Source: the human T2T-CHM13v2.0 reference genome, Homo sapiens
Assembly: GCF_009914755.1 (NCBI RefSeq)
Contig: NC_060932.1
Length of the DNA: 64,000 nt
Strand: one strand, 5' to 3'
Shown: positions 55,641 to 62,770 of the stretch, in pieces
Layout of the letters: every line of letters begins with the position of its first letter
Position numbering within the stretch: position 1 is the first letter of the stretch
Position numbers and translations under genes: made by a program
The notes under the pieces: generated by a model
Database searches by the model: none
Seen by the model: only the letters and a program-made list of their open reading frames with translations
Told to the model about the DNA's origin: nothing

Positions 55641-55986
55641 GCGTGATTCATGACTGGCCTTTTTTGTGTATCTGTAATTAAGAGATTACACATCAGAAGT
55701 AATCTTCACACAGTATTTATTAGCCAAACATGATAAGTAATGGCTTTCTGCAGTCAAACACACTGGACTCCAGAGTTCCTCACGTGTGGTTCTAATGCCT
55801 CCCTCCTCTGCATTCTCCCCTTGCACAGACTAGGCACACAGTGAAATATTTTTTGAAATTTAAATGTTATAAAAATGATACCCACTTCAGAACAGTTTTC
55901 CAACATGGAATATGTCCAGTGAGAAGTAAAAACTCACTTCCACACCAGCCCTATTCTTACTCTCAAGAGGTGACTACACTTTGTCA

Positions 55987-56370
55987 TTTTTTTAAGGTGG
56001 ACAGGAAGTAGGATTTATTGGTGGGCATTAGGAGGGGGCAGCACAGTAGAAGCCCTCATGAGTGCAGGGCCCACCGCTTGTCCGGAGGGTCACGATTGGG
56101 GGTATACTTGACCCCACAGTTATTGGGATAAGCTGCTTCTCAGCCATCATGTCTTCAAATTCATCCACACTGAACTTGGTAAAGTCCCACTTCTCTGAGA
56201 AGTGGATATTCTGGCGGCCAGGGAACTTAAAGTTGGCCTTGCATAGGGCCTCAATCACATGCTCCTTGTTCTGCAGCTTGGTGCAGATGGACATGATGAC
56301 TTGGCCAATGTGAACCCTGGCCACAGCACCCTGGGGCTTTTCAAAGGCACCTCGAATACCTATTCAGAGC
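55987..56370 (-). pseudogene. RPL10: RPL10 (uL16) partial processed pseudogene: last two exons spliced, 3'UTR and poly(A) (probably the locus catalogued as RPL10P19, from memory)
   Basis: ORF 56028..56324 ([26 protein letters not shown]...[13 protein letters not shown]) is RPL10-like. Exon junction at 56208/56207 with no intron; early in-frame TGA; 1-bp frameshift after LIP; parental stop 56058-56056; AATAAA 56019-56014; short A tail; 13-bp TSD. Confidence 0.93.
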
Positions 56371-56410
56371 ACTGAGGGTAGTGCAAGGTCAGAGACATGA
56401 ACAACCATAT

Positions 56411-56544
56411 GACTGTCTCCAAGGTCCCTTAGAGCAACCCATATAAGAAACAGGCTGCGTACACTACCAAGGAAGCTGCTGTTTGCAGCTTTTGCACACT
56501 GGGCCCCAGGAGGAAAGGAACTCCATCAGCTCAATTGGCTGCAG
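56411..56544 (-). ncRNA. SNORA70: SNORA70 (U70) H/ACA snoRNA retrocopy, full length (134 nt)
   Basis: Minus strand reads CTGCAGCCAATTGAGCTGATGGAGTTCCTTTCCTCCTGGGGCCCAGTGTGC...CAGCAGCTTCCTTGGTAGTGTACGCAGCCTG...TGGGTTGCTCTAAGGGACCTTGGAGACAGTC, matching recalled U70. H box ACAGCA at 56482-56477; ACA box at 56416-56414, 3 nt from the end. Expression unknown. Confidence 0.9.
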
Positions 56545-56715
56545 CCCTTTATCATTTTTACATGTAGCCTACTATCTGTTTCTTCTTCATATACAACCAT
56601 ATGTGTATATTACCTTTTTATGGTAACAAAATATATATGCCAATTGGAATATGTATAAATAATTTCTTTAAAAAGCACCTTGTATTATTAAGAAAATGCG
56701 TTTGAAAATAAAATC

Positions 56716-58988
56716 TGATATGGTTTGGCCCTGTATCCCCACGCAAATCTCATCTTGTAGCTTCCACAATTCCCATGCATTGTGGGAGGAACCCAGTGGG
56801 AGGTAATTGAATCTTGGGGGCGGGTCTTTCCCATGCTATTCTCATGATAGTTAATAAAGTTTACCTGCACAAGCTCTCTGGACATCCACGTAAGATGTGA
56901 CTTGCTCCTCCTTGCCTTCCACCATGATTGTGAGGCATCCCCAGCCACGCAGAACTGTGAGCTCTCCATTAAACCTCTTTCCTTTGTAAATTGCCCATTC
57001 TCGAGTACGTCTTTATCAGCAGTGTGAAAACAGACTAATACAGTAGATTGGTACCAGTAGAGTGGGGTGATGCTGGAAAGATACTCGAAAATGTGAAAAT
57101 GACTTTAGACCTGGGTAACAGGCAGAGGATGGAACAGTTTGGAGGGCTCAGAAGAAGAAAGGAAAATGTGGGAAAGTATGGAACTTCCTAGAGACTTGTT
57201 GAATGGTTTGGACAAAAATGCTGATAGTGATATGAACAATAAGATCCAGGCTGAGGTGGCCTCAGATGGAGGTGAGGAACTTGTTGGGAACTGGACCAAA
57301 GGTGACTTTTGTTATGTTTTAGCAAAGAGACTCGGTGGCATTTTGTCCCTGCCCTAGAGACTGTGGAACCTTGAGCTTGCGAGAGATGATTTAGAGTATC
57401 CGGGGGAAGAAATTTCTAAGCAGCAAAGCATTCCAGAGGAGACTTTCGTGTTGTTAAAGGCATTCAGATTTAAAAGGGAAACAGGGCATAAAAGTTTGGA
57501 AAATTTGCAGCCTGACAATGCGATAGAAAAGAAAATCTTATTGTCTGAGGGGAAACTCAAGCCAGCTGCAGAAATTTGCATAAGTAACGAGGAGCCGAAT
57601 GTTAATCTCCAAGACAATGGGGAAAATATATCCAGAGCACGTCAGAGGTTTTCACGGCAGCCCATCCCATCACAGCCCCAGAGGCCTAGCAGAAAAAGTG
57701 GTTTCATGTGCCAGGCCCAGGGTCCCTACGCTGTGTGCAGCATAGGGACTTAGTGCCTTGCGTCCCAGCCACTTCAACCATGGCTGAAAGGAGCAACAGT
57801 AGAGCTCAGGCTGTGGCTTCAGAGGGTGCAAGCGTCAAGCCTTGGCAGCTTCCATGTGGTGTTGAGCCTGCCAGTACACAGAAGTCAAGAATTGAGGTTT
57901 GGGAACCTCCTCCTAGATTTCAGAGGACGTAAGGAAACGCCTGGATGCCCAGGCAGAAGTTCGCTGCAGGTGTGGGGCTGTCATGGAGAACCTCTGCTAG
58001 GGCAGTGCAGAAGGGAGATGGGGGGTCAGAGACCCGACACACAGTCCCTACTGGGGCACTGCCTAGTGGAGCTGTGCCCAGAAGAGGGCCACCGTCCTCC
58101 AGACCCCAGGATGGTAGATCCACCAATAGCTTGCGCCATGTACCTCAAAAAGCTGCAAACACTCAATGCCAGCCTGTGAAAACAGCCGGGAGGGAGGCTG
58201 TACTCTGCTAAGCCATAGAGGCAGAGCTGCCCAAGACCATGAGAACCCACCTCTTGCATCAGCATGACCTGGATGTGAGACATGGAGTCAAAGGAGATCA
58301 TTTTGGAGCTTTAAGATTTGACTCCCCTGCTGGATTTCGGACTCGCATGGGGCCTGTAGCCACTTTGTTTTGGCCAATTTCCCCCATTTGGAATGGTTGT
58401 ATTTACCCAATTCCTGTACCTCCATTATGTCTAGGAAGTAACTAGCTTGCTTTTGATTTTACAGGCTCATAGGCAGAAGGGACTTGCCTTATCTGGATAA
58501 GAATTTGGACTGTGGACTTTTGAGTTAATACTGAAATGAGTTAAGACTTCGTGGGACTGTTGGGAAGGCATGATTGGTTTTGAAATGTGAAGACATGAGT
58601 TTTGGGAGGGGATAAGGGCAGAATGATATTGTTCAGCTCTGTGTCCCCACCCAAATCTCACCTTGTAGCTCCCACAATTCCCATGTGTTGTGAGAGGAAC
58701 CTGATGGGAAGTAATTGAATCATGGGGTGGGTTTTTCTCCAAGCTGTTCTTGTGATACTGAGTAAGTCTCATGAGATCTGATGGCTTTAAAAACAGGAGT
58801 TCGCCTGCATAAGCTCTCTTTGCATGCTGCCATCCATGTAAGATGTGACTTGCTCCTGCATGCATTCTGCCATGATCATCAGGCATCCCCAGCCACCTGG
58901 AACTGGAGCTCTCCATTAAACCTCTTTCCTTTGTAAATTGCCCAGGACAAGTACGTCTTTATCAGCACCATGAAAATGGATTAATACA
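56716..58988 (+). mobile_element. Full-length THE1B-type MaLR provirus (5'LTR 56716-57042, internal 57043-58623, 3'LTR 58624-58988)
   Basis: Both LTRs begin TGATAT and end TAATACA; polypurine tract before the 3'LTR; THE1-int sequence between; 5-bp TSD AAATC/AAGTC. Confidence 0.92.
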
Positions 58989-62436: not shown

Positions 62437-62770
62437 CAACTTTCTTATATGAGTAAGTCCTCTACTTAGAAGTGTTTGAGAGAGGAGTCACTTATTCACT
62501 GCCATAGCTACCAGTGTCTCTTCTCTAACACACAGAAGGCTACTTCCTTACTTGCTACATTCTCCATGCTGCAAACGTTCTCATACACAGAATGGCACAG
62601 GTTTCCGTTTGGTCCTCCTCCCCGCTGCATGGTCAAGCTGTGTGTCCACAGAAAAATGACAAAGCCTCCCTCTCCCTGGGCTCTATGCCCCAATATGAAC
62701 CCTAAAGCAGTATGCTTATGTCTTGAGGCTCCTCAATTAACATTTAGAGCAGCTTCTGTGTCTAACTCAT

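What the first reader, a model, noticed from the sequence alone, without database searches (positions are those of the whole stretch)
55979..56559. Retrotransposed fossil of a snoRNA-headed, spliced, polyadenylated RNA: SNORA70 + residual intron + RPL10 terminal exons
Seen in sequence, minus strand: TSD (AAAAATGATAAAG, 56559-56547), GG, complete SNORA70 (56544-56411), ~40 nt of downstream intron with pyrimidine tract (56410-56371), RPL10 penultimate exon joined without intron to the last exon (junction 56208/56207), 3'UTR, AATAAA, A tail, TSD (55991-55979, one mismatch). Established: SNORA70/U70 sits in an RPL10 intron, and snoRNA retroposons that carry downstream host exons are a described class. 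Inference: the 5' boundary coincides with the snoRNA 5' end rather than a random L1 truncation point. The template was therefore probably an RNA whose 5' end was trimmed back to and protected by the H/ACA snoRNP while its 3' part was spliced and polyadenylated (SPA-like RNA or stabilised decay intermediate of intron-retaining RPL10). That implies such an RNA was present in the germ line. An annotation as plain RPL10 pseudogene would miss this.
Basis: partly seen in the sequence, partly recalled or inferred. Interest (0 to 1): 0.8.

Follow-up and report, generated by a model that had tools for sequence, protein, structure and literature searches.

The report
Known SNORA70–RPL10 snoRNA retroposon fossil
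This is an old, dead retrocopy of an RNA that began at the SNORA70 snoRNA and ran through the spliced last two RPL10 exons; the kind of element, and the way it arises, were described in 2006, so it is real but ordinary.

Summary
On the minus strand of 55979-56559 lie a full SNORA70 copy (Rfam 142.4 bits), the 40-nt rest of its RPL10 host intron, RPL10 exons 6 and 7 joined without an intron at 56208|56207, the 3'UTR with AATAAA, a very short A run and a 13-bp target-site duplication with one mismatch.

Eighteen of 30 independent snoRNA-bearing RPL10 retrocopies in this genome start within a few nt of the snoRNA 5' end. The 338 nt of intron upstream of the snoRNA occur only at the parent gene.

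None of this is new. Weber 2006 (PMC1687206) defined "Type-3 snoRTs", counted 30 human U70/RPL10 examples and proposed the same template: a pre-mRNA trimmed back to the snoRNA 5' end, spliced downstream and polyadenylated. This copy is probably "U70h" of Luo & Li 2007 (PMC1802619). The predicted RNA, the RPL10-SNORA70 "3'-snoRT", was reported from nanopore reads and ddPCR in 2025 (PMC12152556).

The copy differs from the parent at about 11% of aligned bases, its reading frame is broken, and its snoRNA is no better kept than its exons. The one modest addition is that 5'-truncated sister copies cluster at snoRNA nt 39-58.

The parts
56547..56559 (-). 5' target-site duplication AAAAATGATAAAG (possibly 15 bp, to 56545)
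   Evidence: it pairs with 55991-55979 with one mismatch. It is preceded by T, which gives a T|AAAAA L1-endonuclease-like site.
56545..56546 (-). GG: either the end of a 15-bp duplication with 2 mismatches, or 2 untemplated bases
   Evidence: the parent has CT here, so these bases were not copied from the intron. The 3' side reads TG.
56411..56544 (-). complete SNORA70 (U70) H/ACA snoRNA copy
   Evidence: RF00156, 142.4 bits, model positions 1-135; 120 of 134 aligned bases (89.6%) match the parental snoRNA; ninth best of 40 genome-wide hits.
56371..56410 (-). whole remainder of RPL10 intron 5 downstream of the snoRNA, up to the 3' splice site
   Evidence: aligns to parent 1634-1680 (36 matches, 3 mismatches, 9 gap columns).
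56208..56370 (-). RPL10 exon 6 (penultimate exon) copy, with an in-frame TGA at 56366-56364
   Evidence: 89.6% identical to parent 1681-1844. The translation matches uL16.
56056..56207 (-). RPL10 exon 7 coding part, joined directly to exon 6 (intron 6 absent); a 1-nt deletion between 56124 and 56123 shifts the frame; stop codon at 56058-56056
55994..56055 (-). RPL10 3'UTR, with AATAAA at 56019-56014 and an end at the parental poly(A) site
   Evidence: aligns as far as parent 2134. Sister copies end at 2129-2135.
55987..55993 (-). run of 7 A: remnant of the poly(A) tail, overlapping the first 5 bases of the 3' duplication
55979..55991 (-). 3' target-site duplication AAAAATGACAAAG

Best explanation
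The element is a Type-3 U70/SNORA70 snoRNA retroposon in Weber's sense. It is a single L1-mediated insertion of one RNA made from the X-linked RPL10 gene.

That RNA began at the mature 5' end of the intronic H/ACA snoRNA SNORA70, most likely because a 5'-to-3' exonuclease was stopped by the assembled snoRNP. It kept the 40-odd nt of intron 5 that follow the snoRNA. It had intron 6 spliced out, and it was cleaved and polyadenylated at the normal RPL10 site. L1 endonuclease nicked a T|AAAAA site, and target-primed reverse transcription copied the RNA to its 5' end. This left a 13-15 bp target-site duplication.

The insert has decayed neutrally since then and has no function.

Shown here: the anatomy, the parentage, the absence of intron 6, the precise and recurrent 5' end, and the neutral decay. 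Inferred: the L1 machinery, the protection by the snoRNP, and the presence of the RNA in germ-line or early-embryo cells.
For: - Anatomy and parentage.
- Recurrent 5' end: of 30 independent snoRNA-bearing RPL10 retrocopies, 18 start at the snoRNA 5' end, 1 starts near nt 8 and 11 start inside the snoRNA. Six sisters have clean duplications. In L002, L003, L004 and L005 the duplication abuts parent 1498. In L006 and L007 it abuts 1499. None of the six has extra bases.
- No copy carries upstream intron.
- Independent insertion: the flanks of the window copy are not shared with any sister. The tree is comb-like with the parent at the tip, and the window copy leaves the backbone alone with a terminal branch of 0.088.
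- Neutral decay: snoRNA 89.6%, exon 6 89.6%, exon 7 coding part 86.8% identity to the parent.
- Literature: the class, the counts (30 of 42 human RPL10 processed pseudogenes, 18 entire and 12 partial) and the template model are in Weber 2006 (PMC1687206, sections 8 and 14). Poly(A)+ RPL10-SNORA70 '3'-snoRT' RNAs are in PMC12152556, which puts the median 5' end 2 nt upstream of H/ACA snoRNAs (passages and section 3.1). 5'-snoRNA-ended polyadenylated cytoplasmic 'cSPA' RNAs are mentioned in PMC9394076 (passages).
Against: - Almost no poly(A) tail survives: 7 A, of which 5 lie inside the duplication.
- The 13-mer of the duplication is not rare by itself: 3 matches against 0.52 expected.
- The GG at the 5' junction is unexplained if the duplication is only 13 bp.
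- Nothing in DNA can show which nuclease made the 5' end, or that a snoRNP protected it.
- Germ-line presence of the RNA is inferred only from the fact that the insertions are inherited.
- The published RNA evidence comes from cancer lines, somatic tissues and plasma, not germ cells.
- The genome search scores only the best candidates (40 of 52; 42 scored), so copy counts are lower bounds.
Confidence: 0.93

Rival explanations
1. The element is an ordinary processed pseudogene of a full-length RPL10 mRNA that retained intron 5. L1 reverse transcription happened to stop at the snoRNA's first base, so the 5' truncation fell there by chance.
For: 5' truncation is common in L1-mediated copies. Full-length intron-retaining RPL10-SNORA70 transcripts ('FL-snoRT') do exist (PMC12152556).
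Against: Eighteen of 30 independent copies share the same 5' end to within a few nt (P 5e-27 for a 6-nt window). None of the 39 loci compared with the parent has upstream intron joined to the snoRNA. That intron segment is single-copy in the genome.
Confidence: 0.02
2. The template was a separately transcribed, capped RNA that started at the snoRNA from an internal start site. The GG would then be cap-derived extra G.
For: Two G that are not in the parent precede the snoRNA in the window copy. From recall, extra G at the 5' end of full-length L1-type inserts is ascribed to copying of the cap.
Against: The six sisters with clean duplications have no extra base. L011 has at most one, and it is a C. 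The GG can be read as the end of a 15-bp duplication. According to Weber 2006 and the reviews read here, SNORA70 is intronic and is processed by exonucleases.
Confidence: 0.02
3. The window copy is a copy of a copy. It would be a segmental duplicate or a secondary retroposition of another U70 snoRT, not a direct product of RPL10.
For: Such cases exist. L013 shares about 100 bp of 3' flank with L006. Several pericentromeric and Y-linked copies share flanks. L015, also on this chromosome, has a similar A-rich 5' flank.
Against: Comparison of L001 with all other loci then held (L002-L040) gives no flank homology beyond the element. For L015 the match covers L001 1509-2083 only. In the tree the window copy has no supported sister.
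Confidence: 0.03

Closest known systems
Type-3 U70 snoRNA retroposons (snoRTs) of Weber 2006, PLoS Genet 2:e205 (PMC1687206)
   Same: Everything that defines the class is present: a start at the mature snoRNA 5' end, the entire downstream intron, the processed last two RPL10 exons, an A tail and a duplication of about 14 bp. My count in this assembly (18 entire, and 11-12 partial depending on whether the nt-8 copy is counted) matches Weber's 18 and 12.
   Different: Nothing of substance differs. The A tail is nearly gone.
H/ACA retrogenes of Luo & Li 2007, NAR 35:559 (PMC1802619): Figure 1D class (example U70m) and Table 1 entry U70h
   Same: U70h is listed as intergenic, on chr8, 89.9% identical, a retrogene with a poly(A) tail. 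The window snoRNA is 89.6-90.1% identical to the parent. The three chr8 copies in this assembly (window, L015, L017) pair one-to-one with U70h, U70i and U70j by order and by truncation state.
   Different: The coordinate differs: hg18 8.86 Mb against 10.78 Mb here. I could not lift coordinates over, so the identity is probable, not proven.
5'-snoRNA-ended, 3'-polyadenylated RNAs: SPA lncRNAs, cSPA of NOP56-SNORD86, and '3'-snoRTs' including RPL10-SNORA70 (PMC12084880 abstract; PMC9394076 passages; PMC12152556 passages and section 3.1)
   Same: The architecture is that of the inferred template: a snoRNA at the 5' end, host sequence downstream and a poly(A) tail. RPL10-SNORA70 is a named, ddPCR-validated example.
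   Different: Those are RNAs seen in somatic and cancer cells. This is a DNA fossil, so it only implies such an RNA in cells that contribute to the germ line. PMC12152556 does not contain the word-starts 'retropos' or 'pseudogene', so it draws no link to the retroposons.
Ordinary RPL10 processed pseudogenes (exon-only)
   Same: They share the parent gene, the 3' end and the L1-type insertion. Ten such copies were found with exons 2-7 spliced.
   Different: They lack the snoRNA and the intron tail. Their 5' part is exon 5 joined to exon 6.

Membership tests
Type-3 snoRT (Weber 2006) | The 5' end coincides with the 5' end of the mature snoRNA, give or take a few untemplated nt | tested here: met
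   the element starts at parent 1499, which is Rfam model position 1. It is preceded by GG, which is not in the parent.
Type-3 snoRT (Weber 2006) | Contains the entire intron sequence downstream of the snoRNA | tested here: met
   56410-56371 aligns to parent 1634-1680, up to the 3' splice site. It has small deletions (9 gap columns).
Type-3 snoRT (Weber 2006) | Followed by the processed (spliced) 3' exons of the host gene | tested here: met
   exon 6 is joined to exon 7 at 56208|56207, and parent intron 1845-1919 is absent.
Type-3 snoRT (Weber 2006) | Poly(A) tail at the host gene's polyadenylation site | tested here: inconclusive
   homology ends at the parental poly(A) site, about 20 nt after AATAAA. 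Only 7 A follow, and 5 of them are part of the duplication.
Type-3 snoRT (Weber 2006) | Target-site duplication of about 14 bp bracketing the insert | tested here: met
   13 bp with 1 mismatch, or 15 bp with 2, exactly at both ends. The motif alone is not rare (3 matches against 0.52 expected).
SNORA70 (Rfam RF00156) | Covariance-model score above the gathering threshold over the full model | tested here: met
   142.4 bits against 40, positions 1-135. ACA lies 3 nt from the 3' end, and the hinge ACAGCA is kept.
SNORA70 (functional snoRNA gene) | Expressed, bound by dyskerin, guides pseudouridylation | not testable with these tools
   The copy is intergenic in the hub table. Its snoRNA is no better conserved than the pseudo-exons, and it has 14 substitutions. 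MFE folding does not discriminate: z is -0.29 for the copy and -1.32 for the parent.
RPL10 processed pseudogene | Homology to RPL10 exons without the intervening intron, and a disabled reading frame | tested here: met
   uL16 residues 114-192, E 2.3e-38, with a TGA and a frameshift.
SPA / cSPA / 3'-snoRT RNA (as template) | RNA with a snoRNP-protected uncapped 5' end and a poly(A) tail | not testable with these tools
   This can only be inferred from the DNA. Support: no recurrent extra G in sisters, and RNA reported in PMC12152556.

The most novel reading that the evidence does not exclude
The roughly 30 U70 retrocopies, laid down one after another along the parental lineage (comb-like tree), form a fossil series. 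That series would show that the RPL10-SNORA70 '3'-snoRT'/cSPA-type RNA has been present in germ-line or early-embryo cells for tens of millions of years. It would also show that this RNA is a better L1 substrate than the far more abundant mature RPL10 mRNA: about 30 copies against 10-12.

The second, tight cluster of 5' ends at snoRNA nt 39-58 (9 of 11 truncated copies) would then mark a second discrete template end. In that form only the 3' hairpin half of the H/ACA RNP protects the RNA. It would not be random arrest of the reverse transcriptase.
Probability: 0.2. Interest if true: 0.4.

Novelty: already known. Interest (0 to 1): 0.12.

Why it matters
It matters little for discovery. The class, its human census, this probable copy and the mechanism have been in print since 2006-2007.

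The finding is a clean textbook case. It shows that two separate RefSeq features, RPL10P19 and LOC124900259, are one insertion event, and annotation could say so.

The remaining value is as a bridge. The retroposon papers of 2006-2007 and the long-read '3'-snoRT'/cSPA papers of 2018-2025 describe the same molecule from two sides. In the papers I read the link is not drawn. Two searches that combined the two vocabularies did not turn one up: of the 15 rows listed I opened only PMC11028025, and one search found no paper.

The clustering of truncated 5' ends at the 5' hairpin is a small testable addition.

Tried and rejected
- Intron/exon boundary. I first read the intron tail as 51 nt, with the exon starting after AATAG at 56360. 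The RPL10 reading frame in the parent and the spliced pseudogenes, which join exon 5 to parent 1680/1681, show the acceptor is the upstream AG.
- Segmental duplication with L015, which is on the same chromosome and has a similar A-rich flank. Rejected: there is no flank homology.
- MFE folding of the snoRNA copy and of the parent. Neither stands out from shuffles (z -0.29 and -1.32), so this says nothing about function.
- Rarity of the duplication motif. It is weak on its own.
I could not check Weber's Table 3 and Figure S3 or Luo & Li's supplementary list for this exact copy.
- No dating by orthologous empty sites was possible, because only this genome is held.
- The old copies L044, L046 and L047 (BLAST start 1530, Rfam alignment 1-135) were left unclassified and out of the statistics. 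The L039/L045/L048/L049 duplication family was counted once.

Full report
**What is in the sequence.**

Read on the minus strand, window 56559-55979 contains these parts in order:

- AAAAATGATAAAG (56559-56547), then GG.
- A 134-nt stretch (56544-56411) that Rfam scores as a complete SNORA70: RF00156, 142.4 bits against a gathering score of 40, E 7.4e-30, model positions 1-135.
- 40 nt of other sequence (56410-56371).
- 315 nt whose translation is RPL10/uL16 residues 114-192. The phmmer E-value is 2.3e-38 against 214-aa ribosome chains. It carries an in-frame TGA and a frameshift.
- A 3'UTR with AATAAA (56019-56014), then seven A.
- AAAAATGACAAAG (55991-55979).

**Parentage.**

A DNA search of the window's own assembly gave 46 matches, with 40 of 52 candidates scored. 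One match is the intron-bearing RPL10 gene on contig 23, held as L023. Its layout, read, is:

| Feature | Parent position in L023 |
|---|---|
| Exon 5 ends | 1160 |
| Intron 5 | 1161-1680 |
| SNORA70 | 1499-1633 |
| Exon 6 | 1681-1844 |
| Intron 6 | 1845-1919 |
| Exon 7 | 1920 to the poly(A) site near 2134 |

The window aligns to parent 1501-1843 (87% identity, E 1e-119) and then directly to 1920-2134 (87%, E 3e-71). Three things follow:

- The snoRNA, the whole intron tail behind it and exon 6 are colinear with the gene.
- Intron 6 is missing, and the junction is 56208|56207.
- The copy ends at the gene's own poly(A) site.

Identity to the parent by segment:

| Segment | Identity |
|---|---|
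| snoRNA | 89.6% |
| Intron tail | 92.3% |
| Exon 6 | 89.6% |
| Exon 7 coding part | 86.8% |
| 3'UTR | 92.2% |
| Overall | p = 0.108, K2P = 0.118 |

My exon 7 and UTR cut points in that call were a few bases off. The snoRNA is no better kept than the pseudo-exons, so nothing suggests selection on it.

**The 5' end.**

The parent reads ...GCT|CCGCAGCC, and the window reads ...AAAGGG|CTGCAGCC. Homology therefore stops at snoRNA nt 1 (parent 1499). The T at nt 2 is shared by all sister copies. The GG is not parental. It is either two untemplated bases, which Weber reports as occasional, or the end of a 15-bp duplication, AAAAATGA(T/C)AAAG(G/T)G, with two mismatches. At this level of decay two mismatches in 15 bp are unremarkable.

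The 13-mer is not rare in itself. It has 3 matches with up to one mismatch in 64 kb, against 0.52 expected. Its meaning comes only from its placement at both ends of the insert.

**Sister copies.**

I compared 39 loci with the parent, and 8 more loci taken from a genome-wide Rfam search that gave 40 hits over the cut-off. The classes are:

- **Full snoRNA, 18 copies.** These are L001-L007, L009, L011, L014-L016, L018, L027, L029, L031, L032 and L043. By BLAST they start at parent 1494-1503. All carry the intron tail and spliced exons 6-7.
- **Near-full, one event.** The family L039/L045/L048/L049, amplified by segmental duplication, starts near nt 8.
- **Truncated inside the snoRNA, 11 copies.** They start at 1524, 1537, 1541, 1541, 1545, 1545, 1546, 1553, 1555, 1556 and 1584. 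One of them, L042, is Type-2-like, with its poly(A) 4 nt before the 3' splice site.
- **Ordinary spliced pseudogenes, 10 copies**, with exon 5 joined to exon 6.
- **Exon 7 only, 1 copy** (L040).
- **Left unclassified:** L044, L046 and L047, which are old and share flanks with one another.

Where the duplication is clean, it abuts parent 1498 in L002, L003, L004 and L005, and parent 1499 in L006 and L007. None of these six has extra bases.

No copy has upstream intron. The 338-nt upstream part of intron 5 has one match in the genome, the gene itself.

The null model places breakpoints uniformly over 473 nt, namely the upstream intron plus the snoRNA. Under it, 18 of 30 events in a 6-nt window has P = 5e-27.

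**Independence and age.**

The window copy shares no flank with any other copy then held, L002-L040. A maximum-likelihood tree of 28 copies plus the spliced parent is comb-like, with the parent at the tip. That is the pattern expected when copies peel off an evolving master gene one after another. The window copy leaves the backbone alone, in an unresolved fork with L017 and L027, on a terminal branch of 0.088. At recalled neutral rates this is some tens of millions of years. I could not date it by empty sites, because only this genome is held.

**Known or new.**

Weber 2006 (PMC1687206; sections 8 and 14 read in full) states the following:

- Type-3 snoRTs start at the mature snoRNA 5' end. 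[quoted passage not shown]
- U70 lies in the penultimate RPL10 intron.
- Of 42 human RPL10 processed pseudogenes, 30 are Type-3 U70 snoRTs (18 entire, 12 partial).

Luo & Li 2007 (PMC1802619; passages including Table 1) list U70h as intergenic, on chr8, 89.9% identical and a retrogene with poly(A). This fits the window copy by identity (89.6-90.1%). It also fits the one-to-one order of the three chr8 copies. The coordinates differ between assemblies, and I could not lift them over.

The RNA itself has since been reported. PMC12152556 (2025; abstract, section 3.1 and passages) describes poly(A)+ '3'-snoRTs'. Their 5' ends lie at C/D snoRNAs, or 2 nt upstream of H/ACA snoRNAs. RPL10-SNORA70 is one of three cases validated by ddPCR. 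PMC9394076 (passages) mentions cytoplasmic 5'-snoRNA-ended polyadenylated 'cSPA' RNAs made through NMD, and a dyskerin-bound EIF4A1 snoRT truncated at its 5' end.

PMC12152556 does not contain the word-starts 'retropos' or 'pseudogene'. The 2024 review PMC11028025 discusses both topics, but not together in the passages shown. Two searches that combined the two vocabularies did not turn up a linking paper. Of the 15 rows listed I opened only that review, and one search returned none. The only fresh element is thus the bridge between fossil and RNA, and Weber's model already implies it.

1. The truncated copies are not spread at random. Nine of 11 start at parent 1537-1556, which is snoRNA nt 39-58. 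That region is the 3' strand of the 5' hairpin and the start of the hinge in the Rfam structure. In simulation, 0 of 200,000 trials reached this clustering over 1500-1680, and 10 of 200,000 over 1500-1633. The window was chosen after seeing the data, and L013 may not be independent. Weber ascribes truncation to arrest of the reverse transcriptase. The passages matching 'truncat' in both 2006-2007 papers do not mention a hot spot.
2. The parental snoRNA has C2 paired with G53, while the copies have U2 (16 of 17 readable, none C) and A53 (21 of 23, two C, none G). The Rfam consensus is u2/a53. This is either a compensatory pair change in the gene after the youngest copies were made, or parallel CpG decay in the copies. 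The first is more likely, because the youngest copies keep other CpGs.
3. The absence of extra G at clean 5' junctions argues against a capped template.

**Verdict.**

The element is a catalogued member of a class described twenty years ago, with the same mechanism proposed then and the RNA found since. It is a dead fossil, so its interest is low.

Noticed in passing
sister loci L008, L010, L012, L013, L017, L026, L030, L035, L042 (parent L023 1537-1556): 5'-truncated U70 retrocopies cluster. Nine of 11 start at snoRNA nt 39-58, on the 3' strand of the 5' hairpin and the start of the hinge. Simulation: 0 of 200,000 trials (range 1500-1680) and 10 of 200,000 (range 1500-1633) reached this. The window was chosen post hoc.
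   Followed up: partly
L023 1500 and 1551 (parental SNORA70 nt 2 and nt 53), compared with all copies: The parent has C2:G53. The copies have U2 (16 of 17 readable) and A53 (21 of 23), as in the Rfam consensus. This is either a compensatory pair change in the gene after the youngest retrocopies, or parallel CpG decay.
   Followed up: partly
L013 (G000:C12:75662212-75665737) and L006 (G000:C1:201234655-201238212): L013 is truncated at parent 1541. It shares the 3' target-site copy and about 100 bp of downstream flank with the full copy L006 (89.5% over 637 bp). It is therefore a copy of a copy, not a fresh RPL10 product.
   Followed up: partly
L042 (G000:C17:30719489-30722114), about 1038-1170: This is a Type-2-like U70 retroposon. 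It begins at parent 1545 and its poly(A) starts at intron position 1676, 4 nt before the 3' splice site. It has no exons.
   Followed up: no
L039, L045, L048, L049 and further contig 9, 13, 14 and 21 hits; L044, L046, L047: Two old U70 copies were multiplied by segmental duplication, as shown by identical flanks. One family lies in contig 4, 9, 13, 14 and 21 regions. The other lies on contig 1 and twice on contig 24.
   Followed up: partly
window 62652-62664 (+): A third AAAAATGACAAAG 13-mer lies here. It is unrelated to the insert and shows the motif alone is not diagnostic.
   Followed up: yes
window 56560-56800 (-) and L001 flanks: Flank stretches of the window locus match flanks of L026, L037 and L004 at 71-90% identity. 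These are presumably interspersed repeats. I did not identify them.
   Followed up: no
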